A DNA stretch of 33,332 nt from an uncultured Nitrospiraceae bacterium (GTDB lineage Bacteria; Nitrospirota; Thermodesulfovibrionia; UBA6902). Shown here one piece after another: positions 1 through 32,274 of this stretch (position 1 is its first letter; each line of letters begins with the position of its first letter). The stretch is taken from positions 1-33,332 of the forward strand of contig CAYFXR010000149.1 in assembly GCA_964347155.1 (NCBI GenBank), given 5' to 3'. The notes below the pieces were generated by a model that worked only from the letters and a program-made list of their open reading frames with translations, was not told where the DNA came from and searched no databases. The translations under genes were made by a program, and so were the position numbers.

Positions 1-240
1 CTGGCGGGAGAGGGAAAGGGTGAGGGGGAACAAATTAATCAATCACCCCCACCTTAATCCTCCCCCGTCAAGGGGGAGGAGAATTAAGATGCCCCGCCTT
101 GTAGGCGGGGAGCTTCACTAACATGATGTTTAATCGGGAACGATTAAACAACCAAGAAAATATGTTTCGTCAATAGTCTGAACCGTTCAAACGCTTGGAA
201 CGGATGAAACGGTTTAAAACGCCTGCATTATTTGGGTTAA
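1..240 (+). repeat. Partial copy (window-truncated) of the MITE-like element family with GC-rich hairpin cassette; right terminus CTGCATTAT-TTGGGTTAA at ~221-240
   Basis: Right end matches family terminus (gcctgcattatttgggttaa). Body has G/C-stem hairpins (cctcccccgtcaagggggagg; ccccgccttgtaggcgggg) and GAACCGTTC-type mini-palindromes. Confidence 0.55.
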
Positions 241-312
241 GGATTGAAGGGGGGACTGCAAGATCATGCAGATATGTGAAAAAAATTGTATTTTTTTTGA
301 AAAGAATACAAA

Positions 313-337
313 TTTTTGAGCAATGCCTGCATAATAT
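313..337 (-). repeat. Solo terminal fragment of the repeat family (reverse orientation), abutting the aminotransferase start
   Basis: ttgagcaatgcctgcataat is the reverse complement of the family left terminus ATAATGCAGGCATTGCTCAA (cf. 31751-31775). Confidence 0.5.
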
Positions 338-340
338 GGT

Positions 341-1917: not shown

Positions 1918-2061
1918 TTAATCACAATTTTATAAAAGGTAATTTGATATCTGATGTGAGCGACCTATGCAGCCGCAATAAATGCGGCATATCGCTCTCT
2001 CGATTCGCCGGGCGAAAAGCTTGCGTTTACAATTTTTAAAAAGATCGATCAACTACATATT

Positions 2062-2243
2062 TTAACCCAAATAATGCAGACATTGCTCAATAAATTATTT
2101 AACTCGATAAATTTATTATTAAATTGTGCATATGGCTTTGAATAAACGTATTTACACTCGATCAATTAATATTGCGTTTAAGGTATCGAAAAATAATTTC
2201 TTTCACAAAGCCTGCATTATGTGAAATGCATTTTTGGGGTTAA
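2062..2243 (+). mobile_element. MITE-like element, sub-family 1, full copy (copy A)
   Basis: TIRs: TTAACCCAAATAATGCAGAC ... GCCTGCATTATGTGAAATGCATTTTTGGGGTTAA. Copies at 31743-31925 (+) and 11813-11995 (-) are >90% identical. Confidence 0.7.
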
Positions 2244-2366
2244 CGTTTTTTTGATAAAAAGATAAACAATGTATAACAAGACAATAAAAGAGTATCTATA
2301 AATTATGAAGAATACTGGCAGGGAATATAAGGAAGGAATTAATTAGTAATGGCTGGTAAGATTCGG

Positions 2367-3087: not shown

Positions 3088-4092
3088 TTACCCGCCTATT
3101 TTAGACATAGCTTTTATATAGCTGGATAAAGTTATATTCTCATTGAGCAGATGCCTCTGAGGTTTTACTTTTACTGCATAGCAAAAAAGCTCGTCAATCT
3201 CGTTCTCAGTGGCTCCACTCCTCATCGGGGTTTTTATATCAACTGTTAAATCTGAAAAAAGACACGGCCTTATCTTCCCGTTGGCAGTAAGCCGGAGCCT
3301 GTTGCAATAGTTGCAGAAATGATCACTTAACGGACTGATAATTCCGATAACCCCCTTTGCCCCTTCAATCCTGAAATTTCTTGAAGGGCCTCTGCCTTTA
3401 AATTCAAGACGTTTAAGGTTGCCGAGAAATGATATTTTTTCCAGAACTTCTTCTGAACTTATGCATTTGTCTTTTGACCACATTCCGCTACACATTGCAG
3501 GCATGAACTCGATAAATCTTATGTGATATGGGTGGTTTAGAGTAAGCGATGCAAATGACCGTATCTCATCATCATTAAGACCACGTATGGGCACAACATT
3601 TATTTTTACCGGGGAGAGACCGATTTTTTCCGCCTCTCTTATGGATTTCCAGACACGATCAATATCGCCTCCATCGGTTATTTTCCTGTACCTGTCAGAA
3701 TCAAGGGTGTCGAGGCTTATGTTTACGCGGTCGAGACCGGCCCGTTTCAACATCCTGGCGAGTTTTGACAGTATAATTCCATTAGTAGTAAGGCTTAAAT
3801 CATATATGCCTATGTCTTTGATCGATGAAATCAGCTCAATGATATTCTTTCTCAGGAGAGGCTCACCACCGGTAATGCGGACTTTTCTTAAGCCTTGTTT
3901 GTAGGCAATGCGTACAAACCGCACGATCTCTTTATCTGTTAATATATCGGGTTCCTTGAAGTATCTCGGCCTCTTTGAAGGCATGCAGTAAATGCATTTA
4001 AGATTGCATTTATCCGTTATGGATATTCGGAGGTAATCTATACGGCGGTCAAAGGAATCTTTGAGAGGATATGTTTTATTTGACTGCTTCAT
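3088..4092 (-). CDS. moaA: GTP 3',8-cyclase MoaA (radical SAM, molybdenum cofactor biosynthesis)
   Basis: CNLKCIYCMP radical-SAM motif, a YLRISITDKCN N-terminus and C-terminal CxxCxxxxxxxxxxxxxC. The likely start is the ATG at 4092 (the ORF track starts at TTG 4110). Confidence 0.9.
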   Translation of the reverse strand: MKQSNKTYPLKDSFDRRIDYLRISITDKCNLKCIYCMPSKRPRYFKEPDILTDKEIVRFVRIAYKQGLRKVRITGGEPLLRKNIIELISSIKDIGIYDLSLTTNGIILSKLARMLKRAGLDRVNISLDTLDSDRYRKITDGGDIDRVWKSIREAEKIGLSPVKINVVPIRGLNDDEIRSFASLTLNHPYHIRFIEFMPAMCSGMWSKDKCISSEEVLEKISFLGNLKRLEFKGRGPSRNFRIEGAKGVIGIISPLSDHFCNYCNRLRLTANGKIRPCLFSDLTVDIKTPMRSGATENEIDELFCYAVKVKPQRHLLNENITLSSYIKAMSKIGG

Positions 4093-6886: not shown

Positions 6887-7489
6887 CTATGGCGATTTAT
6901 AATAGGATCCCTGGGCACAGGCTTTACAGAAAAGTCTGCCGTTTACATTGACATCCCTCTTGTCCTGGACGTATTCACCACATTTTTCGCATTTAATTCT
7001 CCGAACGGGCCTTCCGGGCATATCCTCTTCAGGTACTTCAACGCTTACATTTGTCCATTCGAATAATTCGTTATCAGGCATGATCTTATAAGCTTCAAGC
7101 TGGCATTTATATTTATCTTCAATATCTGGAAAATAATTTTTTGCCTTGTCTTTGGATTCCTCTTTCGCAAGAATTCTTACCGCTTTTCCTGTTTTCAGAT
7201 TTGCATAAGTAGCTGCCATCTTTCCGAAATCAAGAAATTTTAACGACCTTTTACCCAGGCTGCAGCCGGTAACGGACTGTATTGCATCGGTAGCGCACCG
7301 GTCTATTTCAACATACACAATGAGCTTCTTTCTATCCTGCCCCTTTGGATCATTTATCCCTATCAACTCAAGTCCTAAAATGCTCATCCTTACACCAAGG
7401 ACCTGTCCAGGGCAAAGATGTCCATGTGTTTTTACTGATTCCTCGAGGAGTCTCTCAAAACCGAGTTTATCTAACATCTCATATTCCAT
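6887..7489 (-). CDS. FmdE/FwdE-domain protein with C-terminal zinc ribbon
   Basis: HGHLCPGQVLGVRM motif characteristic of the FmdE family. C-terminal CEKCGEY...CKAC. Confidence 0.75.
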   Translation of the reverse strand: MEYEMLDKLGFERLLEESVKTHGHLCPGQVLGVRMSILGLELIGINDPKGQDRKKLIVYVEIDRCATDAIQSVTGCSLGKRSLKFLDFGKMAATYANLKTGKAVRILAKEESKDKAKNYFPDIEDKYKCQLEAYKIMPDNELFEWTNVSVEVPEEDMPGRPVRRIKCEKCGEYVQDKRDVNVNGRLFCKACAQGSYYKSP

Positions 7490-7611
7490 CTCCTATTTTT
7501 ATCCAACCTGCAAATTTTCTTTTACTTATTTCAATGTATAGTACCTGCTTTGCTTCAAAAAAGCCAATCCAAATCCACCTTCAATTTTCTATGATTTTGT
7601 ACCTACTTCCT

Positions 7612-7825
7612 TTACCCAGAAAATGCATTTTAAATAATGCAGGCTTTGGAAGAAAATTTATTTATCGATACATTAGACGCAATTCCAACCAATCTAAGGT
7701 GAATATTTTTATTCCAAGCTATATGCATGATTTAATAGTAAATCCATCCCGTAAAATATTTACTATTTACGGGATAAATCGAATTAAATAAATTTTATTA
7801 CAATGTCTGCATTATTTAAGTTTAA
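7612..7825 (-). mobile_element. MITE-like element, sub-family 2 (copy B), with extra internal hairpin CCCGTAAA..TTTACGGG
   Basis: Reverse complement aligns along its length with 10164-10343. Termini TTACCCAGAAAATGCATTTTAAATAATGCAGG and CAATGTCTGCATTAT. Confidence 0.65.
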
Positions 7826-7899: not shown

Positions 7900-8754
7900 A
7901 TGTTTAAACTCAGTATATTCCTTATAGCATTTCTAATACTTTTCATTAGTACAAATATATCATATGCTAAGGAAAAGGAGATTATCTTTGCCATTTCGCC
8001 AATGGCATCTCCTGTTTCCACTCTCTCTTATTACAATGATTTTATAAGATATCTTTCTAAAAAGACAGGTCTAATGATCATTCCTAAACAGAGGAGAACC
8101 TACGCTGAGATTAACTCCCTTTTAAAGAAGGGCGAAGCAGAGTTCGCCTATACGTGCACCGGGGCTTACATAAGAGGCAATTTTGACTTCGGACTTGAAC
8201 TCCTTGCCGTGCCAGTCATAAATGGCAAGACAAGCTATCATTCATACATAATTGTAAACAAAGAAAGCAAGATCGAGATCTTCTCCGGGCTTCGAGGAAG
8301 GGTCTTTGCCTTTACAGACCCGCTCTCATTGACAGGGAGACTGTACATCATACATCTCCTTGATACAATGGGTCTCATACCGGAGGAATTTTTTGAAAAG
8401 ACTTTTTACACATCAAGTCATGAAAAATCAATACAATCTGTGGCAAATGGACTTGCAGATGGGGCGGCAGTTGACAGTCTTATTTTTGACGATATGAAGA
8501 GAAAACATGCCCCGTCCACAAGCAATGTAAGAATTATAAAGATTTCACCGCCTTACGGCATACCTCCGGTTGTGGCGTCTCCTGTTGCGGAAAAATCAAC
8601 CAAGCAGCTTATATTAAAGACCCTTATTAAGATGGCAGAGGATACAACCGGAAGGGAGATTCTCCAGGGAATCCATATTGAAAAATTTATTATTCCTGAC
8701 CCTGCTATTTATAAGACTGCGGCAGAAGTGAGGGAGGCAACATTTCTACGGTGA
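7900..8754 (+). CDS. PhnD/SsuA-family periplasmic solute-binding protein (sensor-associated, AioX/ArxX-like)
   Basis: Signal peptide. PhnD-like fold motifs. Single mature Cys in FAYTCTGAY. A strong SD (AGAGGGGAA) precedes the ATG. Overlaps the kinase start (GTGA). Confidence 0.8.
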   Translation: MFKLSIFLIAFLILFISTNISYAKEKEIIFAISPMASPVSTLSYYNDFIRYLSKKTGLMIIPKQRRTYAEINSLLKKGEAEFAYTCTGAYIRGNFDFGLELLAVPVINGKTSYHSYIIVNKESKIEIFSGLRGRVFAFTDPLSLTGRLYIIHLLDTMGLIPEEFFEKTFYTSSHEKSIQSVANGLADGAAVDSLIFDDMKRKHAPSTSNVRIIKISPPYGIPPVVASPVAEKSTKQLILKTLIKMAEDTTGREILQGIHIEKFIIPDPAIYKTAAEVREATFLR

Positions 8755-10175
8755 GATTAGGAAAAATCTACAACAGCATAGCATTTCGCATCTCTATCTC
8801 CATTGCCGTTGTAGTGGCTGCTACAACGATGGGTGTGAGTTGGCTGCTGCTGAGAGAAGAAAGAAAAACACTGGAACTTGAACTTCGTAGCAAGGGAATG
8901 TACCTTGCAAATACAATGTCCCACCATATCATCGAACCATTCCTTTATGAGGAACGGCATGAAATATTCTCTCTTCTCAAAGCATCTATGATTGACGAAG
9001 AGAGTCTTGTGGTGCATGCCGAGGTCTATGACAAGAATAGAGAATTGATTGTTACAGCAGACAAGGATGAAAAGTGGCAAACAATAAAGTTTCAGCCGCT
9101 TAACTTTGAAGATTCACTAGAGGATATTATTATCGAGGAAGACAATATCTTGCCAATTTATCATATATCTTTACCTCTTAAAGTAGAAGCACTTGGAACT
9201 ATTGGATTTATCAGGCTGTGCATAACAAAAGAATACCTTTATAAGACCCTTGGAAATGTAAAACAGAAGCTTTATCTTCTGTCAGCAGCCGTTATCTTTA
9301 TCGGCATAATGCTGGGACTCTGGATGGCAAGAAAAATTTTAAGACCAATACTTATTCTTAATAAAGGGGTAAAAATGGTTGGTGAAGGAGGGCCGGGTGT
9401 TGAGATACCTGTAGTTGGAGAGGGCGAGATAAAAGAGCTGGCACTTTCTTTTAACAGAATGTCCGAGAAATTGAAAGAACAGATTGAGGTGATAAAGACC
9501 GCTCAGGAAAATCTTATAAGGACAGAGAAACTCTATGCCGTTGGAGAATTCTCTGCAGGAATTGCACATGAAATAAAGAACCCTCTTACATCCATCAAAA
9601 TGCTTATGCAGACTACACGATACAAAAAAAAGGCACTGTCCGACAGAGATTTTGAGATTATTGAGGGAGAGATAAACAGGATAGATCGTATCGTAAAAGA
9701 GTTTCTTGCTTTTGCAAGACCTGAAAAGATTGAAAAGACAGATATAAGTATAAATGATGTCCTTGAAGAAGTTATTACATTGACCGAGCCAAAGATGAAA
9801 CAAACTACCATACAACTTGAACAGATGTTTTCTCCCAACCTGCCGATGATCAAGGGAAATCTTGATGGTCTCAAACAGGTTTTTCTCAATATTGTTCTTA
9901 ATGCCTTACAAGCAATGAATGGTGGTGGCACACTGGGTATAGAGACATCAAAGAATAAAGATATGCTGTCAGTTGTAATAAGAGACACCGGCGCTGGGAT
10001 TCCAAAACAGGATTTAAAAAGAATTTTTGACCCTTTCTTTACAACAAAAGAGGAAGGAACCGGTATGGGACTGGCTCTAACGTATAAAATAGTGAATGAC
10101 CACTCTGGCAAGATTGATATAGATTCGACTACATCCGGTACAACGGTAAAAGTGGATTTGCCCTTACCCGAATAA
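8751..10175 (+). CDS. Sensor histidine kinase (2 TM, periplasmic domain, HAMP, HisKA, HATPase_c)
   Basis: HEIKNPLTSI H-box and N/G1/G2 boxes (DTGAGIP, GTGMGLAL). GTG start overlaps the upstream stop. Confidence 0.85.
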   Translation: MRLGKIYNSIAFRISISIAVVVAATTMGVSWLLLREERKTLELELRSKGMYLANTMSHHIIEPFLYEERHEIFSLLKASMIDEESLVVHAEVYDKNRELIVTADKDEKWQTIKFQPLNFEDSLEDIIIEEDNILPIYHISLPLKVEALGTIGFIRLCITKEYLYKTLGNVKQKLYLLSAAVIFIGIMLGLWMARKILRPILILNKGVKMVGEGGPGVEIPVVGEGEIKELALSFNRMSEKLKEQIEVIKTAQENLIRTEKLYAVGEFSAGIAHEIKNPLTSIKMLMQTTRYKKKALSDRDFEIIEGEINRIDRIVKEFLAFARPEKIEKTDISINDVLEEVITLTEPKMKQTTIQLEQMFSPNLPMIKGNLDGLKQVFLNIVLNALQAMNGGGTLGIETSKNKDMLSVVIRDTGAGIPKQDLKRIFDPFFTTKEEGTGMGLALTYKIVNDHSGKIDIDSTTSGTTVKVDLPLPE

Positions 10176-10343
10176 TGCAGACATTGTAATAAAATTTATT
10201 TAATTCGATGGATTTATTATTAAATTATGCATATAGCTTGGAACAAACATATTCACCTTTGATTGGCTGGAATTGCGTCAAAGGTATCGAGAAATAGATT
10301 TTCTTCCAACGCCTGCATTATGTGAAATGCATTTTTTGGGTTT
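10164..10343 (+). mobile_element. MITE-like element, sub-family 2 (copy C), wedged exactly between kinase and sigma54-regulator genes
   Basis: Left TIR TTACCCGAATAATGCAGAC encodes the kinase's last codons L-P-E-stop. Right end ...AAATGCATTTTTTGGGTTT immediately precedes ATG 10344. Confidence 0.7.
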
Positions 10344-11750
10344 ATGAATACACTTCTTATTATAGATGACGAAAAAGCAGTGAGATACTCCTTTAAAAGG
10401 ATGTTTGAAGATGAATACAGGGTTTTAACTGCTGAGGACGGTGTATCGGCTCTGAATATTCTCGATACCAGCTATATTGGTGTTGACGTCATTTTCCTTG
10501 ATGTCAGAATGCCTGGCATGGGGGGGATAGAGGTGCTTAAAAAGATTAAGGAGATAACAAAGAACATTCCTGTTGTAGTAATGACGGCATTTGGCGATTC
10601 TGATACTGCTATTGAAGCTATGAAAGAAGGGGCGTTTGATTACCTTACAAAGCCTTTAGAGGGTAACCAGCTAAAAGATGTTATTGAAAAGGCGCTTGCA
10701 TCGGCACGGCTTCAGCAAGATGCTTCCTGTTGTGGAACGATAGAAGAACTCTCGGATAAGGAAGAGACAATTGTGGGAAAAACTCAGTCAATTCTTGATG
10801 TTTGTAAGATGATCGGTCAGGTTGCAAACACAGATGTGCCTGTGCTCGTAACAGGAGAAAGTGGTGTAGGAAAGGAGTTAGTGGCACGGGCAATATACAA
10901 CCACGGTAGTAGAAAAGGTAGACCTTTTATGGCTGTTAATTGTGCTGCACTTCTTGAGGGTGTGGTAGAGAACGAATTATTTGGTTCAGAGAAAGGGGCA
11001 TTCACGGGCGCTGACAAGAGGAGAATAGGAAGGTTCGAACAGTGTGACGGGGGTACTATCTTCCTTGATGAGATCGGAGATATGAGTATTCCAACTCAAG
11101 CTAAATTACTCAGGGTACTCCAGGATGGTAGCTTCGAGCGTATCGGAAGCAATGAGACAATAAAGACAAATGTGCGTATCATTGCTGCCAGTAATAAAAG
11201 TCTCCACGACGAGGTAAGGAACGGCAGGTTCAGAGAAGACCTGTTTCACAGACTCAATGTTTTTTCCATACACATTCCTGCGCTCAGAGAAAGAATGGAA
11301 GATATTCCGTTGCTCTCAGATTACTTCCTCTCAAGGGCGGTCAGGGATACGGATAAAAAGATCACGGGATTTTCACATGACGTAATTAAACGTTTTATGT
11401 CATATAACTGGCCGGGCAATGTGAGAGAGCTTGAAAATACCATAAAACGGGCTGTGGTAATTACTACTGGAGAGGTTCTTGGTGTGAATGATGTTATTTT
11501 AAATGCTGAGTCATGTACAAAAGAGTTTCAAGAGCTTTCTGTGGTAATTGACGGTTTATTTGAAAGGACGATTAACACGCAAGCCCCTTCAGACAGTTAT
11601 CACTCTATCCTCTCACGTGTGGAAAAATGTCTTATTGAAAAGGCACTAAATGTAACAAAGGGGAATCAGGTACAGGCATCTGCACTACTCGGTATTACAA
11701 GAGTCACATTAAGAAAAAAGATGCAAGAGTTCAAAATCCCGTCTGTATAG
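10344..11750 (+). CDS. Sigma-54-dependent response regulator (REC + AAA+ sigma54-activator + Fis-type HTH), NtrC/AioR-like
   Basis: Receiver Asp (FLDVRMPGMGG), Walker A GESGVGKE, GAFTGA motif, C-terminal HTH. Confidence 0.9.
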   Translation: MNTLLIIDDEKAVRYSFKRMFEDEYRVLTAEDGVSALNILDTSYIGVDVIFLDVRMPGMGGIEVLKKIKEITKNIPVVVMTAFGDSDTAIEAMKEGAFDYLTKPLEGNQLKDVIEKALASARLQQDASCCGTIEELSDKEETIVGKTQSILDVCKMIGQVANTDVPVLVTGESGVGKELVARAIYNHGSRKGRPFMAVNCAALLEGVVENELFGSEKGAFTGADKRRIGRFEQCDGGTIFLDEIGDMSIPTQAKLLRVLQDGSFERIGSNETIKTNVRIIAASNKSLHDEVRNGRFREDLFHRLNVFSIHIPALRERMEDIPLLSDYFLSRAVRDTDKKITGFSHDVIKRFMSYNWPGNVRELENTIKRAVVITTGEVLGVNDVILNAESCTKEFQELSVVIDGLFERTINTQAPSDSYHSILSRVEKCLIEKALNVTKGNQVQASALLGITRVTLRKKMQEFKIPSV

Positions 11751-11812
11751 GAAATGCACAGCCTTTATGCATACTTTTGATCATTTTATATAACTCACTC
11801 CTGATTAAATCC

Positions 11813-11995
11813 TTTAAACCAAAAAATGCATTTCACATAATGCAGGCTTTGTGAAAGAAATTATTTTTCGATACCATAAACGCAATATTAATTGATCGAA
11901 TGTAAATACTTTTATTCGAAGCCATATGCACAATGTAATAATAAATGTATCGAGTTAAATAATTTATTGAGCAATGTCTGCATTATGTAGGTTAA
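11813..11995 (-). mobile_element. MITE-like element, sub-family 1 (copy D), inverted relative to copy C, so the two flank the regulator gene
   Basis: Reverse complement ~90% identical to 2062-2243. Confidence 0.7.
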
Positions 11996-12021
11996 ATAAC
12001 GAATTCCCTTTATCTTTATTT

Positions 12022-12037
12022 TGGCATGTTATTTGCT
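12022..12037 (+). promoter_or_regulatory. Sigma-54 (-24/-12) promoter TGGCATGTTATTTGCT upstream of CheY-like gene
   Basis: GG and GC spaced as in the TGGCAC-N5-TTGCA consensus. Nearly identical to the second site at 12746. Confidence 0.6.
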
Positions 12038-12098
12038 TAACATAACGTCAATACAAGAGTATCTTGACCGTATTATATTTTACGAAACCAAAGATTAC

Positions 12099-12503
12099 AT
12101 GCTGGTAGAAAATAAAGAAAACACTTCTACAGGTATAAAAAAAAGGATTCTGATTGTTGATGATGAAACATTGATTCTCTCTCAGCTGTCAAATGCCCTT
12201 CGTATTTTTTGTGATTTTCAAGGTGAAGTGAAAACTGTTAAAAGTGGCAGGGAAGCTGTGAGAGAAATCAGTCATTGTTTCTGTGACATATGTTTTCTTG
12301 ATATCAATCTCCCTGATTTAAATGGCTTGGAAGTAATGAAAAAAATAAATGAGTTATCTCCTGTGACAAAAATTGCAATTATGACAGCGAGTCTTATAAA
12401 TAATGATATGATGAAGACAATAAAAGACGGCGCATCTCTTCTTATCGAAAAGCCATTCGATCTCTCCCGAATCAAGACTTTTGTGAAACAGGTATTGGGG
12501 TAA
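12099..12503 (+). CDS. Stand-alone CheY-like response-regulator receiver domain
   Basis: RILIVDDE ... DINLPDLNG ... TAS...K receiver motifs. The ORF-track N-terminal extension (12021-12098) overlaps the sigma54 promoter. The first in-frame ATG is at 12099. Confidence 0.75.
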   Translation: MLVENKENTSTGIKKRILIVDDETLILSQLSNALRIFCDFQGEVKTVKSGREAVREISHCFCDICFLDINLPDLNGLEVMKKINELSPVTKIAIMTASLINNDMMKTIKDGASLLIEKPFDLSRIKTFVKQVLG

Positions 12504-12745
12504 ATCTGGGTGTTTTATGGTGTGTCGTAATTGATATTCAGAAACGTATCCTGAAACACGTGCAGCACAAGATTCGGGTAAAATCTTTGCATAGAAAATA
12601 TACAGCCTGTACAATCACTATCCAGAATAATCCAAGAAATGCAGTTAGCCACGATTATAGTGACCCTTTGCCGAGCCCCATTTATAAATGACAAAGGGAG
12701 TTTTTTAAATACTTAATACCATCTTGTAAAAGTTTCAGGGCTAAA

Positions 12746-12761
12746 TGGCAGGTTATTTGCA
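12746..12761 (+). promoter_or_regulatory. Sigma-54 promoter TGGCAGGTTATTTGCA upstream of SPFH gene / respiratory operon
   Basis: Excellent match to TGGCAC-N5-TTGCA. Lies 52 nt upstream of SD AAGGAGGA (12813-12820) and ATG 12826. Confidence 0.7.
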
Positions 12762-12825
12762 TCAAGAAAGGGAAAGGTTCATTGAACAAAAAATCTTTTA
12801 CGAAAAATAAAAAAGGAGGAGTTTG

Positions 12826-13605
12826 ATGCAACAGCTAACTTCTATTGGTTTCTTACTAGCTGTAATTTTAGGTATATATCTTCTTTCAATTGCAATTTAT
12901 ATTCTAAGGGAATACGAGAGGGGTGTCGTCTTCAGGCTTGGTAGGTTAATACCTGTAAAAGGTCCTGGTCTTGTAATTATCATACCAATTATCGATAGAC
13001 TTGTGAAGGTAAGCCTGCGGATCGTTGCCTTGGAGGTGCCTGCTCAGGACGTAATTACAAAAGACAACGTCTCCATAAAAGTAAGTGCGGTTCTCTATTA
13101 CAGACCTGTTGATGCTAACAAGGCCATAACGGAAGTTGAAGATTATCATTACGCTACTTCGCAGATATCTCAAACAACCCTGAGGAGTGTTTTAGGACAC
13201 AGTCATCTTGATGAGCTCCTTGCCAAAAGGGAGGAATTAAATTCTCGGCTACAAAAAATCATTGATGACCAAACAGAACCCTGGGGCATTAAGGTTACGA
13301 CGGTCGAGGTAAAAACCGTTGACCTTCCATCAGAAATGTTGAGGGCAATTGCAAGACAAGCAGAAGCTGAAAGAGAGAGAAGGGCAAAAGTCATTCATGC
13401 AGAAGGTGAATATCAGGCATCTCAAAAACTTGCAGATGCAGCGGCTATCATTGGGACCCAGCCAACGGCAATACAACTCAGATTTCTCCAGACATTAGTA
13501 GAAGTAGCTACTGAAAGGAATTCAACAACAATATTCCCTGTACCCATAGACCTTCTGGAACCTTTCTTGAAGAAATCTAGAAAAGAGAGTGGTGGAGATT
13601 TGTAA
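12826..13605 (+). CDS. SPFH/band-7 (stomatin/prohibitin-like) membrane protein
   Basis: N-terminal TM helix. [15 protein letters not shown]-domain signature. Coiled-coil/Ala-rich C-terminus. Confidence 0.85.
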
Positions 13606-13626
13606 GGGCGAAAGATTGCATACGCG

Positions 13627-14541
13627 ATGTATAGAGAAAACCGAAAGATGAGAAAGCTGAACCGAAGAGAATTTATAAGGCTGACAGCTGTTGGCGGGAC
13701 CGGCATTCTCCTGCCCCAACCGCTAAGGGTGCTTGATGACGCGTTTGACCAAATTATCGGGACTACACAGCAGAATAGCAAGATCGAATATGTACCGAAG
13801 CCGGTCACTGGGGTCAGATTCGGGATGGTTATAGACCTCGGAAAGTGCATTGGTTGCAGGCGGTGCATGTATGCCTGTAAACGGGAAAACAATGTGCCTG
13901 ACACCATTTCCCCTCCTTATATCATGGTGTTTGAAACCGAATCAGCTACGGGCGTAACAGGCCACTTCCCTTCACCGGAAATTCCGTGGAAGGGCACAAC
14001 AATGTATTACACCAGACTCCGGAAAGATAAGTGGTATATGCCAGTACAGTGTAACCATTGCGATCATGCTCCGTGTGTGAAAGTTTGTCCTACCGGAGCG
14101 TCATATAAAGATCCTGATGGTCTTGTATTGATAGATTATGAAAAATGTATAGGATGCCGGTATTGTATGACTGCATGTCCGTACAACGCCCGAAGATTCA
14201 ATTGGTGGGAGCCGGAGATACCTCATGACCGTATAAATCCCCTAGTGCCCTTACGCAGACACGGCATTGTAGAGAAATGCACCTTCTGCGTACACCGTAC
14301 AAGAAGGGGTAAATTCACACGTTGTGTGGAAGTATGCCCGAACAAGGCAAGAACCTTCGGAAATTTCAATGACCCTGACAGCAGGGTTTCCAAATTGGTT
14401 GAAACCGAAAGGAACTTCCGACTAAAGGAAGGACTTAATACAGAGCCACGTATATGGTATCTCACAAGACCCAAAGAAAAGCGCATGAGGTGGTATCGTC
14501 CCCTGCCTCCGTCTGAAAATATCAGAGGTGTCAGGTCATGA
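13627..14541 (+). CDS. TAT-exported 4x[4Fe-4S] ferredoxin subunit (NrfC/PsrB/DmsB-like)
   Basis: Twin-arginine motif NRREFIRL. Four Cys clusters (CIGCRRCMYAC; CNHCDHAPCVKVCP; CIGCRYCMTACP; CTFC...CVEVCP). The alternative start at 13648 is equally possible. Confidence 0.85.
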   Translation: MYRENRKMRKLNRREFIRLTAVGGTGILLPQPLRVLDDAFDQIIGTTQQNSKIEYVPKPVTGVRFGMVIDLGKCIGCRRCMYACKRENNVPDTISPPYIMVFETESATGVTGHFPSPEIPWKGTTMYYTRLRKDKWYMPVQCNHCDHAPCVKVCPTGASYKDPDGLVLIDYEKCIGCRYCMTACPYNARRFNWWEPEIPHDRINPLVPLRRHGIVEKCTFCVHRTRRGKFTRCVEVCPNKARTFGNFNDPDSRVSKLVETERNFRLKEGLNTEPRIWYLTRPKEKRMRWYRPLPPSENIRGVRS

Positions 14542-15716
14542 AAGATGTAAGCAGATCCTTTCACATCTTTGTTGTCGTATTGCTGGTCGTGATAGGCCTG
14601 GGCAGCTTCAACTGGCTTCGTTTCTTAACACATGGCCCCGGACTTACCGGTTCAAGTGATGCGGTGCCATGGGGAATATACATAACCGGGCTGGCATACT
14701 TTATAGGATTAAGTGCAGGCGCAACAATCGTCGGATTATTGATACACGGGTTTGGCCGTAATGACTACAAACCAATAGGGATACGCGCAATTCTTCTCGC
14801 GCTCCTCTGTATCTTCGGAGCCACACAATTTGTCCTGGTAGACCTGGGTGTTCCTTTTAGGGGATTGAAGGTGCCTCTCGTACTTCACAACCTGACGTCA
14901 CTCTTCCTTATCTCCTCGTCAAGCTATTACGGATTTATGACCATATTGGGAGGAGAACTCTACTTCTCAATAAAAGTGGCGAAAGGGAAAGCAAGCCACC
15001 GGGATGAAACAATAGCAAAATGGCTTGGAATTCTTGCGGTTCCGTATGCCCTCTGGGTAGTTCATGCCTTCACTGGATCAATCTTTGGTGTAGTAAAAGC
15101 AAGGGAAATGTGGAATACCCCCATGCTGCCGGTACATTTCGTGATATCAGCCATTGCAAGCGGATTTGCCATGGTGATATTGGTAGGAATAATAACATCG
15201 AAAATAGAAAAAAGAGAGCTCCTGAGCAGTGGAACTTATGACCACATGGGTAAACTGCTGGCCTTCTTTGTGGTAGTAACCCTGTTCCTTGACTTCTTTG
15301 ACTATTTTATTCTTCGATACAGCGCAAAAGCAGAGGCAATGGAAACATGGCATATTCTGACGGGCAGATATGCCCCTGTATTGGCAATGAATATCGGTGG
15401 ATTGGCTTCTGCGTTTTTGATACTGATCTTCAGAAAGGGGAGAACCGTCAATGGAATGTTTATTGCTACGATCCTGGTACAGCTGGCAATCATAGCATAT
15501 CGTATTAATCTGGTATCAGTAGGACAGTTAGTCCCTTTATTCCCGGGTATGGGTGAAATATACTACAGCCCGACATTTTCAGAGATATCAGTGGCGTTGG
15601 CTTTAGTGGCGCTTGTAATACTCCTTTATGCGGTGCTGTCCAGGATAATGCCTATGGAAGAAACAGTTCAGGAACTTGTACAGCAGCCGGTACAACGCAG
15701 CTGGAGGCATAGATAA
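14538..15716 (+). CDS. NrfD/PsrC-family polytopic membrane quinol-interacting subunit
   Basis: 392 aa, ~9-10 TM helices. ATGA overlap with the upstream FeS gene, typical for PsrBC/NrfCD pairs. Confidence 0.85.
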   Translation: MKDVSRSFHIFVVVLLVVIGLGSFNWLRFLTHGPGLTGSSDAVPWGIYITGLAYFIGLSAGATIVGLLIHGFGRNDYKPIGIRAILLALLCIFGATQFVLVDLGVPFRGLKVPLVLHNLTSLFLISSSSYYGFMTILGGELYFSIKVAKGKASHRDETIAKWLGILAVPYALWVVHAFTGSIFGVVKAREMWNTPMLPVHFVISAIASGFAMVILVGIITSKIEKRELLSSGTYDHMGKLLAFFVVVTLFLDFFDYFILRYSAKAEAMETWHILTGRYAPVLAMNIGGLASAFLILIFRKGRTVNGMFIATILVQLAIIAYRINLVSVGQLVPLFPGMGEIYYSPTFSEISVALALVALVILLYAVLSRIMPMEETVQELVQQPVQRSWRHR

Positions 15717-15752
15717 TTATTCATTAAGAAGCAAAAAGGAAAATTGAACTAG

Positions 15753-17219
15753 TTGATAGGCGGAGGTGAAAAATTGGACAAACAATCACGTGTAGATGTT
15801 CCAAATAGATATATTCAAAATAGATCCAGAAAAACAAAAAATGACTTTTCATATTATTGGGGTATTTGGTTTATCTTAGGCATTCTCCTTATATATATAC
15901 TGATAAAAATCGTCACCTATGCGCCACATACGGAAGAAGAAAAATGGATACCGGAACCTGCCAGGATTACTATCCCCGGCAGTCCCGATTATGTTGGTTC
16001 AGAGAGGTGCAGGGATTGCCACTGGAAGGAATACGATACCTGGAAGAATACATTACATTCCAAGTTTATGCAACTCCCGAATGAATACACGATCATAGGT
16101 GACTTTGAGAAAAATAACAAGTTGACTGTTAAAGTCACGAGTAAGGTGCCCGGGCTATCAAACAGACTGGTTACCAGCACAATGTATAAGAAGAACGGTG
16201 GTTTCTACGTGAACACCATTGGTCCTCATTTGAAGTACAACAATTATGAAATCACTCACGTCATCGGCATCGGAAGGAGACAGACATATATCACTACGTT
16301 CTCAAACGGTGAAATGCATGTCCTTCCAGTCGAGTGGGACGTCGAGAAGAAGACGTGGGTTGACAACAACGGCTTAAAAAACCACTACCCTGGAGATGGT
16401 GAATACTGGAGCGATAAGGGCAGTATCTGGCAATACAGGTGCGGTGGCTGCCACGTTACCGGCATGAAGATAAATTATGATGAAACAAGAGATTTCTTTG
16501 ACACCGACTGGGTAGACACCGGCATTGCATGTGAGGCATGCCATGGACCGGGTAGTAATCATGTCCAGGCTGCAAGTATGTTCTTTGAGGGCGAGAAGGA
16601 CACAATCATTAATCCGGCAAAGTTGCCGTGGCGGCTTCGTGCCATGATATGTGGCCAGTGCCACAACTGGGGATTAAGCACTACTGCAATTTCCCCAAAC
16701 AAGGAAGGCTTCCCGAAACAATTCAGCTACCCGTATGGTTATCAGGCTGGAAAAGCACTCTATCTCTACTATGTAGAGGAGCGTAAAAAGGAGAAGATAC
16801 ACCACCAGCAATACAATGAGTGGCAGCAGAGCGAGCACGCAAAAACAGGCGTTATGTGCACGAATTGTCACAATGTCCATCAAGAAGAAGATATAAAAAT
16901 TGCCATGACAAAGCTTACCCCGGACAGCTTATGTATGGATTGCCACAAGACATTGCAAAGAAGGGCAGCGCACAGAATTCATACATTCGGAAGCTGTGTT
17001 GCCTGTCACATGCCGAAGACAATAGGGCATGAACACAGTCATACATTTAAATTTATTTCGCCTGAGCTGAGCATAAGGGCGGGAGGCATTGAAAAACAAC
17101 CTAATTCCTGTAGCGGCTGTCATCACCACAAAGAGACGCCATTAGTGAATCTTGTTGAATTCCTTGATGCCGCCAAAAAAAGAGATATGCCGAAACCATT
17201 TTCAGCACACAGGAGGTAA
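15753..17219 (+). CDS. Membrane-anchored octaheme cytochrome c
   Basis: Eight CxxCH motifs (CRDCH, CGGCH, CEACH, CGQCH, CTNCH, CMDCH, CVACH, CSGCH). N-terminal TM anchor. No ATG before the anchor, so a TTG start (15753 or 15774) is assumed. Confidence 0.8.
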   Translation: MIGGGEKLDKQSRVDVPNRYIQNRSRKTKNDFSYYWGIWFILGILLIYILIKIVTYAPHTEEEKWIPEPARITIPGSPDYVGSERCRDCHWKEYDTWKNTLHSKFMQLPNEYTIIGDFEKNNKLTVKVTSKVPGLSNRLVTSTMYKKNGGFYVNTIGPHLKYNNYEITHVIGIGRRQTYITTFSNGEMHVLPVEWDVEKKTWVDNNGLKNHYPGDGEYWSDKGSIWQYRCGGCHVTGMKINYDETRDFFDTDWVDTGIACEACHGPGSNHVQAASMFFEGEKDTIINPAKLPWRLRAMICGQCHNWGLSTTAISPNKEGFPKQFSYPYGYQAGKALYLYYVEERKKEKIHHQQYNEWQQSEHAKTGVMCTNCHNVHQEEDIKIAMTKLTPDSLCMDCHKTLQRRAAHRIHTFGSCVACHMPKTIGHEHSHTFKFISPELSIRAGGIEKQPNSCSGCHHHKETPLVNLVEFLDAAKKRDMPKPFSAHRR

Positions 17220-17279
17220 CGTATTTAGGTTTTCTTGCTGCAAGATCTATGAACAAAGGAGGGAACTGAACAATAGGCC

Positions 17280-18851: not shown

Positions 18852-18983
18852 TTTTATGCTCTGTCCTATGATTGAAATATAGTAACTACTCATGTCTCTT
18901 CCTTTGGAATTTGAAAAAAAGGGAGGATTATAGGGGTGAGTTGCTACAAATATAACACAATTGATCGAAAAAAGGAGGTAACC

Positions 18984-19856: not shown

Positions 19857-19889
19857 TGAATAACGAAAATACAGAAAGGAGGAAATAAA

Positions 19890-22373: not shown

Positions 22374-22462
22374 GATTACTCCAAACAATGGGCATTAAAG
22401 AGAAGGAGTTAAAGATTGTTATCAAAATATGCATACACGTCAGTGGAGGACAAATTTAACAA

Positions 22463-22746: not shown

Positions 22747-22754
22747 CTGAAGAA

Positions 22755-23408
22755 ATGACGAAAAAAATGATCGAAACAGCAAGACAACGAAGCAATATTT
22801 ACGGACTGCTTGCACTTGTTTACCGCAAAGAGGTGACAAAGACACTATTAAGGCATTTAAAAGACCCGGAGTTCCTTTCTGTCTTGTCAAACATGGGAGC
22901 TAGGCTGGAGGATGATTTTTTGAAAAGGCCCGAGGACGAATTAATAGAAGACCTTTCGATAGAATATACAAGACTGTTCTTAGGGCCTGGTAAGCATATC
23001 TCTCCCCATGAATCTGTTCATCATGAGAGAGGTGACGGAGATTGGGGCCAATTGTGGGGCAGGGCAACCGTTGAGGTAAAAAAATTTATTGAAACAGCAG
23101 GGCTTAAATATACGTCCAGTTACCCAGGATTACCTGACCACATCAGCGTTGAATTTGAATTCATGAGGGAAGTTACCAGGCGTGAAGCACATGCCCTCGA
23201 AGAGAATGATAATGATGGGCTGCTCTCTTGTCTGATGATGGAGAACAAATTTATCGAAGACCATCTCTTAAAATGGGTTCCCATCTTTTGTGATAAGATC
23301 ATCTCTGAAGCGGAATTGTCTTTTTACAGGGAAATAGCAAAAATAACAAAGCTTTTTATTGAATTTGAAAAAGAAGAATTGAAGGGATATATATCAGTTT
23401 TATTTTAG
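22755..23408 (+). CDS. TorD/DmsD-family redox-enzyme maturation chaperone
   Basis: EYTRLFLGPG signature. The ORF-track start at 22734 lies inside the repeat terminus (AAATGCATTTTTGGG). ATG 22755 or 22767 is more plausible. Confidence 0.75.
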   Translation: MTKKMIETARQRSNIYGLLALVYRKEVTKTLLRHLKDPEFLSVLSNMGARLEDDFLKRPEDELIEDLSIEYTRLFLGPGKHISPHESVHHERGDGDWGQLWGRATVEVKKFIETAGLKYTSSYPGLPDHISVEFEFMREVTRREAHALEENDNDGLLSCLMMENKFIEDHLLKWVPIFCDKIISEAELSFYREIAKITKLFIEFEKEELKGYISVLF

Positions 23409-23415
23409 ATTTTAT

Positions 23416-24201
23416 TTATCGCAGTCTGAGGTCTGCTGTCACTTTATCCTTATGGCATGTGATACATATTTTAAAAATTGGGCCACTTATACGGAACGTT
23501 GAATTCCCACTTGCTCCTTCTGCCTCAGATCTTTCAGTTTGACCAGCCAGACGAACCCTGTATTTCTCACTAGCCCCTTTTGCGGCAGATTTCTCATAAG
23601 GTATTACTCCTCTTTCATGTGGATTATGACAGGTAGCACACATAATTTCCCCTTTGAAATTTAGCGGAAGTATTATATCGAACTCTTTTTCTGATGCTTT
23701 CATCATTGCCAGCATCTCATTGGATGGCTTGCATATGTGATTTGCATTTACAGGATGTGCATGGTCATACACTTTACTGTGACATCCCAGGCACAGCACA
23801 TCAAGACTTCTAATGAATTTAATTTCCGGACGATGGATTGTAAATGTTGCACGTTTTTCATCAGGCTTTTCCGGATGGCAGTATAAACACTTTTCTCTGA
23901 TAATATCTCCTGTTTCATTTAACTGGTTATGAGGATCGAAAATCTTATATTTATTTTTTTGATGGCACTTAGAACAGATATCTTTTTTTTGAAGGGAGGC
24001 TTTTTTTTGAAATTTCCTTACAGTTCTCTTGTGAACTTTATGCCATCCCCACTTTCCTCTATAGGAAGGATCTATTTCATCGTTTTCAGTATCATTCTGA
24101 GTAAATCTGACAGGTATTATTTTACCTCTCTCTTGTGCGGATAATGTATTGCTCATAGGAATCATTATTATGAGTAGGAGAATTGATATTGTGCGATTCA
24201 T
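23416..24201 (-). CDS. Periplasmic pentaheme cytochrome c
   Basis: Five CxxCH (CSKCH, CLYCH, CLGCH, CATCH, CITCH). The signal peptide starts at the Met at 24201. The upstream 46 codons of the ORF-track model read through a repeat copy. Confidence 0.8.
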   Translation of the reverse strand: MNRTISILLLIIMIPMSNTLSAQERGKIIPVRFTQNDTENDEIDPSYRGKWGWHKVHKRTVRKFQKKASLQKKDICSKCHQKNKYKIFDPHNQLNETGDIIREKCLYCHPEKPDEKRATFTIHRPEIKFIRSLDVLCLGCHSKVYDHAHPVNANHICKPSNEMLAMMKASEKEFDIILPLNFKGEIMCATCHNPHERGVIPYEKSAAKGASEKYRVRLAGQTERSEAEGASGNSTFRISGPIFKICITCHKDKVTADLRLR

Positions 24202-24211
24202 TATCACGCCA

Positions 24212-24350
24212 TTAATCCAAACAATACATTTCAGATAATGCAGGCTTTGTGTCCCGATGCATCGGGACGATACCTTGGAAATTCGTAATCCATGTCCGTA
24301 GTACGTGTCCGTAAAAAACGGATAACGGACACGTTTCACGATAATATAAG
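24212..24350 (-). repeat. Partial MITE-like copy (copy F) plus hairpin CGTGTCCGT..ACGGACACG
   Basis: TTAATCCAAACAATACATTTCAGATAATGCAGGC terminus. Internal GGTATCGTCCCGAtgCATCGGGAC is shared with copy E. Confidence 0.55.
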
Positions 24351-31925: not shown

Positions 31926-32145
31926 TAGAAATTTTTACTTTCAATGAGTTAATGTGTATTTGGAAGATTTTTTATGATAAGCTGAATGTCTTTACTAATT
32001 TGTTATTATGCAAAAGCTGTGTGTACTTAAAAAGCTATATAGGAACAAATATGTTGAAATTGTTAATTAAATAAGGAATGGATATGATATCAATTTCTAC
32101 TTGAGATGATATCAAATTTACCATATACTTCATATGTGGAGATAT

Positions 32146-32208
32146 AAAATATGCAGGACAGTTGTATATCTGTAAGACGAGCTTTTGAGATGCATTTTTT
32201 GGGTTAAA
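32146..32208 (+). repeat. Mini (internally deleted) derivative of the repeat family upstream of panC
   Basis: AAAATATGCAGGACAGTTG (left-TIR-like) ... GATGCATTTTTTGGGTTAAAGG (right terminus). 65 bp upstream of panC ATG. Confidence 0.45.
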
Positions 32209-32274
32209 GGCAAGGTGAAGTGGGAAGGAAATCCTGAAGAAATGCGAAAGGGAAGAAGTGGTTAAAGAGGAAAC

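What the first reader, a model, noticed from the sequence alone, without database searches (positions are those of the whole stretch)
10164..10346. Repeat termini have been co-opted as gene ends: the element supplies the histidine kinase's last four codons and stop, and creates false in-frame ATGs upstream of torD-like and pentaheme genes
The kinase ends ...L-P-E-stop, encoded by TTACCCGAATAA. This is the element's left TIR (compare TTAACCCAAATAA in other copies). The same element ends with its GGGTTT flush against the regulator's ATG. At 22734 and 24339 the ORF caller picks ATGs inside element termini (AAATGCATTTTTGGG), producing N-terminal extensions that would bury the real signal peptide or start. 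This raises a genome-annotation hazard. It also suggests insertions have truncated the original kinase C-terminus and intergenic spacer.
Basis: seen in the sequence. Interest (0 to 1): 0.55.

Follow-up and report, generated by a model that had tools for sequence, protein, structure and literature searches.

The report
Small transposon splits kinase–regulator gene overlap
A 174-base non-coding mobile element (a MITE) landed exactly on the 4-base overlap between a sensor kinase gene and its regulator gene, so the kinase now borrows two codons and a stop codon from the element; this is an ordinary consequence of MITE insertion, and it misleads gene callers at two nearby genes.

Summary

- **What the element is.** Window 10167-10340 is one copy of a roughly 175-nt repeat family. 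The window holds 5 full copies and at least 5 variants or fragments. Copies have terminal inverted repeats (CCCAAAWAATGCA … TGCATTTTTTGGG) and 4-bp direct flanking duplications (TTAA, TTTA, TAAA).
- **The ancestral state.** Five of five orthologous kinase–regulator loci from related Nitrospirota lack the element. They read …CCN TTA TGA, with the regulator ATG overlapping the stop (ATGA).
- **What the insertion did to the kinase.** The element supplies only Pro-Glu-stop. The Leu codon is ancestral. The kinase is lengthened by 2 residues, not truncated. There was no spacer to truncate: the insertion created a 168-nt spacer.
- **What it did to the regulator.** The regulator's ATG is rebuilt by the target-site duplication.
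- **Annotation hazard.** This is real. A public call uses the ATG inside the terminus for the TorD-like gene (224 aa instead of 217). The deposited cytochrome call (307 aa) carries a false 46-residue extension, but from a GTG upstream of the element fragment, not from an ATG in the terminus.
- **Classification.** An undescribed MITE family, so a new member of a known kind.
- **Lead only.** The TTAA-type duplication with CCC/GGG ends resembles piggyBac/IS1380. No transposase was found.

The parts
10167..10340 (+). MITE copy (subfamily B), 174 nt, from CCCGAATAATGCAG to AAATGCATTTTTTGGG
   Evidence: Profile hit E = 1.6e-56 (the profile was built from the five window copies, this one included). 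78% identical to 2061-2243 and 84% to 7607-7767 by the repeat finder. 90-91% identical to window 7615-7820 and L011. Absent from 5/5 orthologous loci.
10163..10166 (+). Left copy of the 4-bp target-site duplication (now CTTA). It holds the ancestral Leu codon TTA.
   Evidence: The empty sites read ccTTTAtga. In BLAST of L001 against the window, L001 4022-4025 (TTTA) aligns to both flanks.
10341..10344 (+). Right copy of the target-site duplication (TTTA). Its A is base 1 of the regulator ATG.
10167..10175 (+). Element-derived codons CCC GAA TAA (Pro, Glu, stop) that now end the kinase
   Evidence: Roughly two thirds of the 120 homologues end …LP(L/V/I)* with no PE tail. Junction alignment.
8751..10175 (+). 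HAMP/HisKA/HATPase_c histidine kinase, 474 aa. The HATPase_c match runs to residue 473 (profile positions 2-110 of 111).
10344..11750 (+). NtrC-type sigma-54 response regulator, 468 aa, with the same start as its orthologues (MNTLLI…)
2066..2239 (+). Full MITE copy (subfamily A), flanked by TTAA/TTAA
7615..7820 (-). Full MITE copy (subfamily B) with a nested 32-nt hairpin insert at 7749-7780. Flanks are TAAA/TAAA in element orientation.
11818..11991 (-). Full MITE copy (subfamily A), flanked by TTAA/TTAA
31747..31921 (+). Full MITE copy (subfamily A), flanked by TTAA/TTAA
22467..22746 (+). Variant element with the same termini but a different, G+C-rich interior. Its right terminus contains the false ATG 22734.
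22755..23408 (+). TorD/NarJ-family chaperone, true extent (217 aa, MTKKMIETA…)
   Evidence: Orthologue N-termini. The product on record for the 33,332-nt NCBI contig, P0121, is 217 aa. Pfam PF02613.
24210..24277 (-). Right-end fragment of the element, just upstream of the cytochrome start. The over-long ORF call reads through it.
23416..24201 (-). Pentaheme cytochrome c, probable true extent (261 aa, signal-peptide-like N-terminus, 5 CXXCH). The deposited call starts at GTG 24339 (307 aa).
214..240 (-). Solo terminus fragment (GCCTGCATTATTTGGGTTAA)
308..340 (-). Left-end fragment next to the aminotransferase start
32184..32209 (+). Right-terminus fragment upstream of panC

Best explanation
The feature is one copy of a non-autonomous DNA transposon (a MITE).

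**Mechanism (inferred from the anatomy).** A transposase supplied in trans, not identified here, recognises the 13-14-nt terminal inverted repeats (CCCAAAWAATGCA) and the sub-terminal ATAATGCAGRC repeats. It inserts the element at A/T-only 4-bp targets (TWWA, mostly TTAA) and duplicates them.

**What happened at this site (shown by comparison with empty sites).**
- The target was the TTTA of …CC**T TTA** TGA. There the kinase stop TGA overlapped the regulator start (ATGA).
- After insertion, the left duplicate keeps the kinase's last ancestral codon (Leu). The reading frame then runs two codons into the element (Pro, Glu) and stops at the TAA inside the conserved ATAATGCAG.
- The right duplicate restores TTTA-TG, so the regulator keeps its ATG.

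**Net effect (shown).** The kinase is 2 aa longer. A 168-nt A+T-rich, foldable untranslated spacer replaces a 4-nt overlap.

**Consequences (inferred).**
- Direct termination–reinitiation coupling is lost.
- The regulator's ancestral Shine-Dalgarno-like GGAG, which lies inside the kinase's 3' end, now sits about 180 nt from the ATG.
- Expression of the regulator is therefore probably altered. Both genes remain intact.

**At the two other genes.** Element pieces sit just upstream of the true starts and happen to be open in frame. This produces over-long ORF calls.
For: **Repeat family**
- The window has 5 full copies plus variants and fragments, in both orientations, covering about 4% of the window.
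- A scan for the right-end pattern returned 22 metagenome contigs. Profile hits lie at or within about 30 nt of a contig end in 9 of them. Repeat-induced assembly breaks would explain that; this is my inference.
- Size classes run from 46-58-nt mini-elements (L009, L025) to 280 nt, all sharing termini.

**Terminal inverted repeats**
- The termini pair in the predicted fold: MFE -42.5 kcal/mol, z = -2.3.

**Target-site duplication**
- 12 of 18 two-ended copies have identical 4-nt flanks.
- The non-palindromic pairs (TTTA/TTTA in L007 and L008; TAAA/TAAA at window 7615-7820) are direct repeats, not inverted.

**Empty sites**
- L001, L002, L027, L028 and L029 all read …TTA TGA with an ATGA overlap.
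- BLAST of L001 breaks exactly at window 10166 and 10341, with TTTA shared by both alignments.
- L001, L002 and L026 contain no copy of the element.

**Kinase C-termini**
- About 80 of 120 homologues end directly at …LP(L/V/I)*; most of the rest carry tails of 1-20 residues.
- The HATPase_c domain is complete.

**Second case of stop donation**
- The L025 pseudopilin ORF ends …CCC AAA TAA inside the left terminus.
- Neighbouring genes' TAA stops lie inside the TTAA duplication in L013, L003 and L018.

**Published precedent**
- MITE overlap with the 3' ends of functional genes, and a C-terminal extension from a MITE, are described for Coxiella QMITE1/2 (PMC5896051).
Against: - No cognate transposase or autonomous element with the same termini was found. 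There is none in the window. A list of ORFs of 250 aa or more in the fetched loci showed no obvious candidate, but these were not searched against protein families.
- The left duplicate at the kinase site is CTTA, not TTTA. This needs either a later synonymous CCT→CCC change or a 3-bp duplication.
- 6 of 18 two-ended copies have imperfect flanks, and L022 has none.
- All effects on expression are inferred. There are no transcript or protein data.
- The orthologous 'empty' loci are only 66-75% identical at the protein level, so they show the ancestral state, not a recent polymorphism.
Confidence: 0.85

Rival explanations
1. The element's termini have been co-opted as gene ends after insertions removed part of the kinase C-terminus and of an intergenic spacer. 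The in-terminus ATGs are what mislead ORF callers at both other genes.
For: - The stop codon and two residues are element-derived.
- ATG 22734 is inside a terminus and is used in one public gene call.
Against: - No truncation: homologues end two residues earlier and the HATPase_c domain is complete.
- No ancestral spacer: there is an ATGA overlap in 5/5 loci.
- Position 24339 is a GTG outside the fragment.
- Nothing indicates selection for the borrowed residues.
Confidence: 0.07
2. It is a MITE of the TA-duplicating kind (mobilised by IS630/Tc1-mariner, like Correia elements or RUP). On this reading the outer T…A belong to the inverted repeat and are not a 4-bp duplication.
For: - TA directly flanks nearly every copy.
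- 'Most bacterial MITEs' carry a TA dinucleotide at their termini (PMC5896051).
Against: - Under a TA model the element ends would have to differ between copies (A-CCC…GGG-T, CCC…GGG-TT, AA-CTT…GGG), in exactly the way a 4-bp direct repeat predicts.
- TTTA/TTTA and TAAA/TAAA are direct, not inverted.
- Four bases of the empty site align to both flanks.
Confidence: 0.08
3. The repeat is a host-functional intergenic module (terminator, promoter, small RNA or protein-binding site; REP/BIME-like or attC-like) kept next to genes by selection, not a selfish insertion.
For: - Copies sit flush with gene starts and stops.
- The element is foldable.
- Short 'mini' versions keep only the termini.
Against: - Both orientations occur relative to neighbouring genes.
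- The element is absent from orthologous sites in relatives whose flanking sequence is intact.
- No Rfam family matches.
- Promoter-like and terminator-like sites are no more frequent than in shuffles, and none faces outward on the + strand in this copy.
- By inspection there is no REP-type GTAG head or attC-type GTTRRRY core. This was not tested formally.
- The flanking direct duplications are a transposition scar.
Confidence: 0.05
4. Assembly artefact: a high-copy repeat joined unrelated pieces in this MAG contig.
For: Nine of the 22 metagenome contigs have the element at or within about 30 nt of a contig end.
Against: - Both flanks of 10167-10340 are collinear with single orthologous loci, down to the duplicated TTTA.
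- An independent contig (L030) reproduces window 21908-24021, including the variant element, at 99.2% identity.
Confidence: 0.02

Closest known systems
Bacterial MITEs that overlap gene 3' ends (Coxiella burnetii QMITE1/QMITE2; PMC5896051)
   Same: - Short, non-coding, multi-copy and foldable, with terminal inverted repeats.
- Copies overlap the 3' ends of functional genes by 1-50 bp.
- One copy provides a C-terminal extension, with the stop codon immediately downstream of the insertion (EnhC).
   Different: - Unrelated sequence and a different host phylum.
- Here the insertion hit a stop/start overlap of an operon pair, so it also separated two coupled genes.
- The 4-bp TWWA duplication is demonstrated here.
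Correia elements (CREE/NEMIS) of Neisseria and RUP of Streptococcus pneumoniae
   Same: From my own knowledge: 100-160-nt MITEs with inverted termini, very abundant, lying next to genes and co-transcribed with them, folding into hairpins that affect mRNA processing.
   Different: - Those elements duplicate TA; this family duplicates 4 bp.
- No promoter or IHF site was shown here.
piggyBac superfamily / prokaryotic IS1380 family
   Same: TTAA target duplication and CCC…GGG element ends are piggyBac hallmarks. IS1380 transposases are their distant prokaryotic relatives (PMC10140906). This family has CCC…GGG ends and mostly TTAA duplications.
   Different: - No transposase was identified.
- TTTA and TAAA targets also occur.
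- The resemblance rests on 7 nucleotides and is a lead, not a membership claim.
Tourist-like MITEs / PIF-Harbinger and the IS5 family
   Same: From my own knowledge: A/T-only short target duplications (TWA for Harbinger, YTAR for IS5).
   Different: - Harbinger duplicates 3 bp.
- IS5 ends are GG/GA…, not CCC.
- Neither point was tested here.

Membership tests
MITE (non-autonomous cut-and-paste DNA transposon) | Short (under about 400 bp) and without conserved coding capacity | tested here: met
   Copies are 174-207 nt; variants range from 46 to 280 nt. No ORF is shared between copies. Two element-overlapping ORFs (31808-32074, 7345-7791) are not on record as called genes.
MITE (non-autonomous cut-and-paste DNA transposon) | Terminal inverted repeats | tested here: met
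   CCCAAAWAATGCA at both ends plus a sub-terminal ATAATGCAGRC/GYCTGCATTAT pair. The termini pair in the fold.
MITE (non-autonomous cut-and-paste DNA transposon) | Target-site duplication flanking each copy | tested here: met
   Identical 4-nt flanks in 12 of 18 two-ended copies, including the non-palindromic TTTA/TTTA and TAAA/TAAA. The empty site holds a single TTTA.
MITE (non-autonomous cut-and-paste DNA transposon) | Dispersed multi-copy family with presence/absence at orthologous sites | tested here: met
   At least 10 copies or fragments in 33 kb. 22 metagenome contigs. Absent from 5/5 orthologous junctions.
MITE (non-autonomous cut-and-paste DNA transposon) | A cognate autonomous element or transposase with matching termini | not testable with these tools
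   None in the window. The apparent 1.45-kb 'element' in L025 is two separate copies flanking pseudopilin genes.
TA-duplicating MITEs (IS630/Tc1-mariner-derived; Correia, RUP) | Duplication of exactly TA | tested here: not met
   Four bases are duplicated: direct TTTA/TTTA and TAAA/TAAA pairs, and a 4-nt overlap of the BLAST alignments to the empty site.
piggyBac / IS1380-derived element | TTAA target duplication and CCC…GGG ends | tested here: inconclusive
   The ends are CCC…GGG, or a one-base variant of them, in most copies. TTAA flanks 9 of 18 two-ended copies, but TTTA and TAAA also occur. The hallmark is taken from PMC10140906.
piggyBac / IS1380-derived element | Mobilisation by a DDD/DDE transposase of that family; precise excision | not testable with these tools
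   No transposase found and no population data.
REP/BIME or integron attC | REP: 20-40-nt palindromes with a conserved GTAG-type head and no duplication. attC: RYYYAAC…GTTRRRY cores between gene cassettes. | not tested
   By inspection only: direct 4-bp duplications are present; no GTAG head is seen; GGGTTAAC/GGGTTAAT do not fit GTTRRRY; and the flanking genes are syntenic operon genes, not cassettes.
Any Rfam RNA family | Match at the family's gathering score | tested here: not met
   0 matches across the whole window.

The most novel reading that the evidence does not exclude
The family may be the non-autonomous partner of a prokaryotic piggyBac-like (IS1380-related) transposase that prefers TTAA/TWWA.

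- Because TAA stops and TTATGA stop/start overlaps contain that target, insertions at gene ends would be largely self-healing: the duplication regenerates the stop or the start.
- This would explain why copies sit flush against genes.
- At the kinase/regulator junction, the terminal helix pairs the region around the new stop codon with the bases just 5' of the regulator AUG. It could therefore substitute for the lost ATGA overlap as a translational-coupling device.
Probability: 0.15. Interest if true: 0.5.

Novelty: new member of a known kind. Interest (0 to 1): 0.3.

Why it matters
- **Annotation of these genomes.** The family makes up about 4% of this window and lies within about 30 nt of a contig end in 9 of the 22 metagenome contigs that carry it. 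It produced at least two wrong start calls in public records. One of them buries the signal-peptide-like N-terminus of a pentaheme cytochrome.
- **A clean natural example.** The case shows how one insertion converts an overlapping, presumably translationally coupled two-component gene pair into separated genes without destroying either.
- **The open lead.** The TTAA-type duplication with CCC/GGG ends is the only point that could be of wider interest. It would hint at piggyBac/IS1380-like activity in uncultured Nitrospirota, but it is unproven.

Tried and rejected
- **Rfam.** A search of the whole window gave no match.
- **Promoter and terminator scan of 9900-12300.** Counts were no higher than in shuffles, and nothing faces outward on the + strand in this copy.
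- **Sigma-54 promoter.** Reading TGCAT-N8-ATGCA as a sigma-54 promoter was rejected by eye. There is no GG at the required spacing from GC.
- **attC and REP readings.** Rejected by inspection: the cores do not fit, and the flanking genes are a syntenic operon.
- **TA-duplication and 3-bp models.** Considered first. Both were replaced by the 4-bp model once the non-palindromic flank pairs and the BLAST overlap were seen.
- **Search for an autonomous element.**
  - L025 looked like a 1.45-kb element bounded by both ends. It is a truncated copy plus a separate 58-nt mini-element, with type II secretion pseudopilin genes between them.
  - Large ORFs in the 23 fetched loci showed no obvious transposase, but they were not run against Pfam.
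- **Genome-collection scan.** The right-end pattern gave a single hit: L003, a MAG labelled Deferribacteres, with the right end only.
- **BLAST of the element.** No match against the plasmid or phage collections.
- **Exact-product look-ups.** The kinase (P0001) and the regulator are not on record, so the window's own record name was not recovered.
- **Literature.** A search for MITEs in Nitrospira-type organisms found nothing relevant. A search for bacterial TTAA MITEs also found nothing relevant.
Full report
**1. What is at the coordinates**

The ORF 8751-10175 is a HAMP/HisKA/HATPase_c histidine kinase. Its HATPase_c match runs to residue 473 of 474 (profile positions 2-110 of 111). It ends GAT TTG CCC TTA CCC GAA TAA, which is D-L-P-L-P-E-stop. 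The next gene, 10344-11750, is an NtrC-type sigma-54 response regulator.

The 168 nt between the two genes, plus the last bases of the kinase, belong to a repeat.
- The repeat finder and a MAFFT alignment show full copies at about 2061-2245 (+), 10163-10346 (+), 31743-31926 (+), 7609-7825 (-) and 11811-11996 (-).
- A profile built from these five copies re-finds each at E = 1e-50 to 1e-58. That is partly circular, since each copy is in the profile.
- The same profile finds fragments or variants at 22682-22751, 24210-24277, 308-340, 217-240 and 32184-32209.
- Together these cover about 4% of the window.

So the repeat is real, and the kinase's last bases do align with its left terminus.

**2. 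Anatomy of the element**

- **Termini.** The outermost bases are inverted repeats: left CCCAAATAATGCA, right TGCATTTTTTGGG. A second inverted pair lies inside them: ATAATGCAGRCATTG and CAAAGCCTGCATTAT. In the predicted RNA fold of 10160-10350 the termini pair with each other (MFE -42.5 kcal/mol, z = -2.3).
- **Subfamilies.** Subfamily A copies are 91-95% identical to one another. Subfamily B, which includes the kinase copy, is 90-91% identical within itself and about 77% identical to A.
- **Shared termini, different interiors.** Variants include:
  - a 280-nt variant at 22467-22746 with a G+C-rich interior;
  - mini-elements of 46-58 nt in L009 and L025;
  - a version with an AACGG-rich interior (window 190-240 and L004).
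- **Orientation.** Copies occur in both orientations relative to neighbouring genes.

**3. Target-site duplication**

I read the four bases outside CCC…GGG in the 18 copies that have both ends. The flanks are:

| Flanks (left/right) | Copies |
|---|---|
| TTAA/TTAA | nine copies |
| TTTA/TTTA | L007, L008 |
| TAAA/TAAA | window 7615-7820, in element orientation |
| CTTA/TTTA | the kinase copy |
| one mismatch | L013, L025 mini-element |
| two mismatches | L011, window 22467-22746 |
| no match | L022 |

TTAA is palindromic and therefore uninformative. The non-palindromic pairs are direct repeats, not inverted. That is what a duplication of the target gives, and not what an extension of the inverted repeat would give.

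A TA-only duplication would need the element's ends to shift between copies in exactly the pattern that a 4-bp duplication predicts. I therefore take the duplication to be 4 bp, at TWWA targets.

**4. The empty site**

The kinase has many close homologues in Nitrospirota/Thermodesulfovibrionia metagenome bins. Most are 473-474 aa long. About two thirds of the 120 listed end directly at …(E/D)(L/F)P(L/V/I)*, and most of the rest carry short extra tails; none ends PE.

I fetched five orthologous loci (L001, L002, L027, L028, L029; 66-75% protein identity). All have the same gene order: periplasmic binding protein, kinase, regulator. In all five the kinase's end coordinate is the regulator's start plus 3. 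The junction reads …CCN TTA TGA, with the regulator's ATG formed by the A of TTA plus TG of the stop. This is the classic ATGA overlap.

The window reads …CCC TTA [CCCGAATAATGCAG … CATTTTTTGGG] TTTATGAATACA….

BLAST of L001 against the window gives two collinear alignments. They end at window 10166 and restart at 10341. L001 bases 4022-4025 (TTTA) are included in both. L001, L002 and L026 carry no copy of the element.

This is a filled site compared with empty sites. A 174-nt element (10167-10340) inserted at TTTA and duplicated it. The left duplicate is now CTTA. That needs a synonymous CCT→CCC change, or else a 3-bp duplication.

**5. Consequences for the two genes**

Shown:
- The Leu codon is ancestral. 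The element proper supplies Pro, Glu and the TAA, which lies in the invariant ATAATGCAG.
- The kinase is two residues longer than the ancestral form, not truncated.
- No spacer existed before. The insertion created one.
- The regulator keeps its ancestral start (MNTLLI…), because the right duplicate restores the A of the ATG.

Inferred:
- The 4-nt overlap, which usually supports termination–reinitiation coupling, is gone.
- The GGAG-like motif 8 nt upstream of the regulator ATG in the empty sites (GTGGAG, inside the kinase's 3' end) is now about 180 nt away. The new upstream sequence (TTTTTTGGGTTTATG) has no good Shine-Dalgarno match.
- The terminal helix would bring the old flank back near the AUG. 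A ribosome terminating at the new stop would also melt that helix. Some coupling may therefore survive, but this is speculation.
- No promoter-like or terminator-like site stands out in this copy. No Rfam family matches.

**6. The two other genes in the finding**

*TorD/NarJ-family chaperone (PF02613).*
- The longest ORF starts at ATG 22734, inside the right terminus AAATGCATTTTTGGG of the variant element.
- Orthologues start MTKKMIETA…, which aligns with ATG 22755.
- The product on record for the 33,332-nt NCBI contig, taken here to be this window, is the 217-aa form (P0121).
- The 224-aa form does exist as a called gene on JABAOH010100313.1 (GCA_012974985.1). That contig is 99.2% identical to window 21908-24021.
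- So this false start has been called in public data.

*Pentaheme cytochrome (5 CXXCH).*
- The long ORF starts at GTG 24339, not at an ATG. This lies 62 nt upstream of the element fragment 24210-24277. The ORF reads through the fragment in frame.
- Orthologues of 255-300 aa start at a Met that aligns with ATG 24201, followed by a signal-peptide-like stretch.
- The deposited product is the 307-aa form (P0241). The 261-aa form is not on record.

**7. Is flush placement against genes general?**

In the metagenome contigs the element often touches gene ends.
- The L025 mini-element sits between two pseudopilin genes, and the upstream ORF ends …CCC AAA TAA in the left terminus. This is a second case of stop donation.
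- In L013, L003 and L018 the neighbour's TAA stop lies inside the TTAA duplication.
- Several right ends lie 0-20 nt upstream of start codons.

Two things probably explain this: a target (TWWA) that is common in stop codons and stop/start overlaps, and purifying selection against insertions inside genes. Because the duplication regenerates a TAA or an ATG-A, such insertions do little damage. This step is inference.

**8. Distribution**

- An exact 25-nt right-end pattern hit one record in the one-genome-per-species collection. That record is a MAG labelled Deferribacteres, and it carries the right end only.
- The same pattern hit 22 metagenome contigs, mostly in the JABAO… series. Profile hits lie at or within about 30 nt of a contig end in 9 of them. 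Repeat-induced assembly breaks would explain this; it is my inference.
- The element has no match in the plasmid or phage collections.
- No paper in the held library describes a MITE in this lineage.

**9. Comparison with known systems**

Every testable defining feature of a MITE is met: small size, no coding capacity, terminal inverted repeats, target duplication, a dispersed multi-copy family, and empty sites. The cognate transposase was not found and could not be searched for further.

Overlap of MITEs with the 3' ends of functional genes, and a MITE-derived C-terminal extension, are already described for Coxiella QMITE1/2 (PMC5896051).

The family is not of the TA-duplicating Correia/RUP type, because that feature was tested and not met.

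The combination of a TTAA-type duplication with CCC…GGG ends is the piggyBac hallmark, and IS1380 transposases are the prokaryotic relatives of piggyBac (PMC10140906). That is a lead resting on a few bases, not a membership claim.

**10. Verdict**

- **Observation:** mostly confirmed, with one coordinate mis-described.
- **Interpretation:** partly supported. Stop donation and the annotation hazard hold. Truncation of the C-terminus and of a spacer does not.
- **What it is:** an undescribed MITE family in an uncultured Nitrospirota-like genome, with one copy dropped onto an ATGA gene overlap.
- **Novelty:** a new member of a known kind.
- **Interest:** 0.3. It is useful for annotation and a tidy textbook-style example. 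The transposase identity and the fate of translational coupling remain open.

Noticed in passing
window 7749-7780 (inside the copy at 7615-7820); also L011 about 1188-1219: A 32-nt hairpin-forming insert (GATTTATCCCGTAAATAGTAAATATTTTACGG) sits at the same internal position in two subfamily-B copies. It is either a nested mini-insertion or a sub-subfamily marker.
   Followed up: partly
window 22467-22746; L003 2430-2566: A variant element has the same termini but a different interior: CCCCCTTTGGAAAAGGGGGATTT… plus several G+C-rich hairpins. Part of that interior recurs in a MAG labelled Deferribacteres. This suggests several non-autonomous families share one set of ends.
   Followed up: partly
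window 190-240; L004 3600-3684: Another interior type (tandem-like GAAACGG/AACGGTT motifs) precedes the same terminus in both places.
   Followed up: no
L004, L006, L010, L012, L015, L017, L018, L021, L023 (contig ends): 9 of the 22 metagenome contigs that carry the element have it at or within about 30 nt of a contig end. Repeat-induced assembly breaks would explain this. Copy number in the source genome is probably much higher than the scan suggests.
   Followed up: partly
window 7900-22373: A PhnD-like periplasmic binding protein, the HAMP kinase and the sigma-54 regulator form a conserved trio across the five orthologous Nitrospirota loci fetched. In the window the trio lies upstream of an operon that includes 4Fe-4S, NrfD-like and multiheme cytochrome genes and a molybdopterin oxidoreductase.
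   Followed up: no
window 12021-12503: The single-domain response-regulator ORF starts at a TTG 30 nt after the copy at 11818-11991, but its receiver domain begins only at residue 43. The true start is probably further downstream, so this is another likely over-long call next to an element.
   Followed up: no
L025 2057-2116 and L009 about 1446-1491: Mini-elements of 46-58 nt consist of little more than the two termini fused. In L025 the left flank is TGAA against TTAA on the right. This would fit a TAA→GAA change that extended the upstream pseudopilin ORF into the terminus.
   Followed up: partly
window 31808-32074 and 7345-7791: Mechanical ORFs of 88 and 148 aa overlap element copies. Neither is on record as a called gene. 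They are probably spurious.
   Followed up: yes
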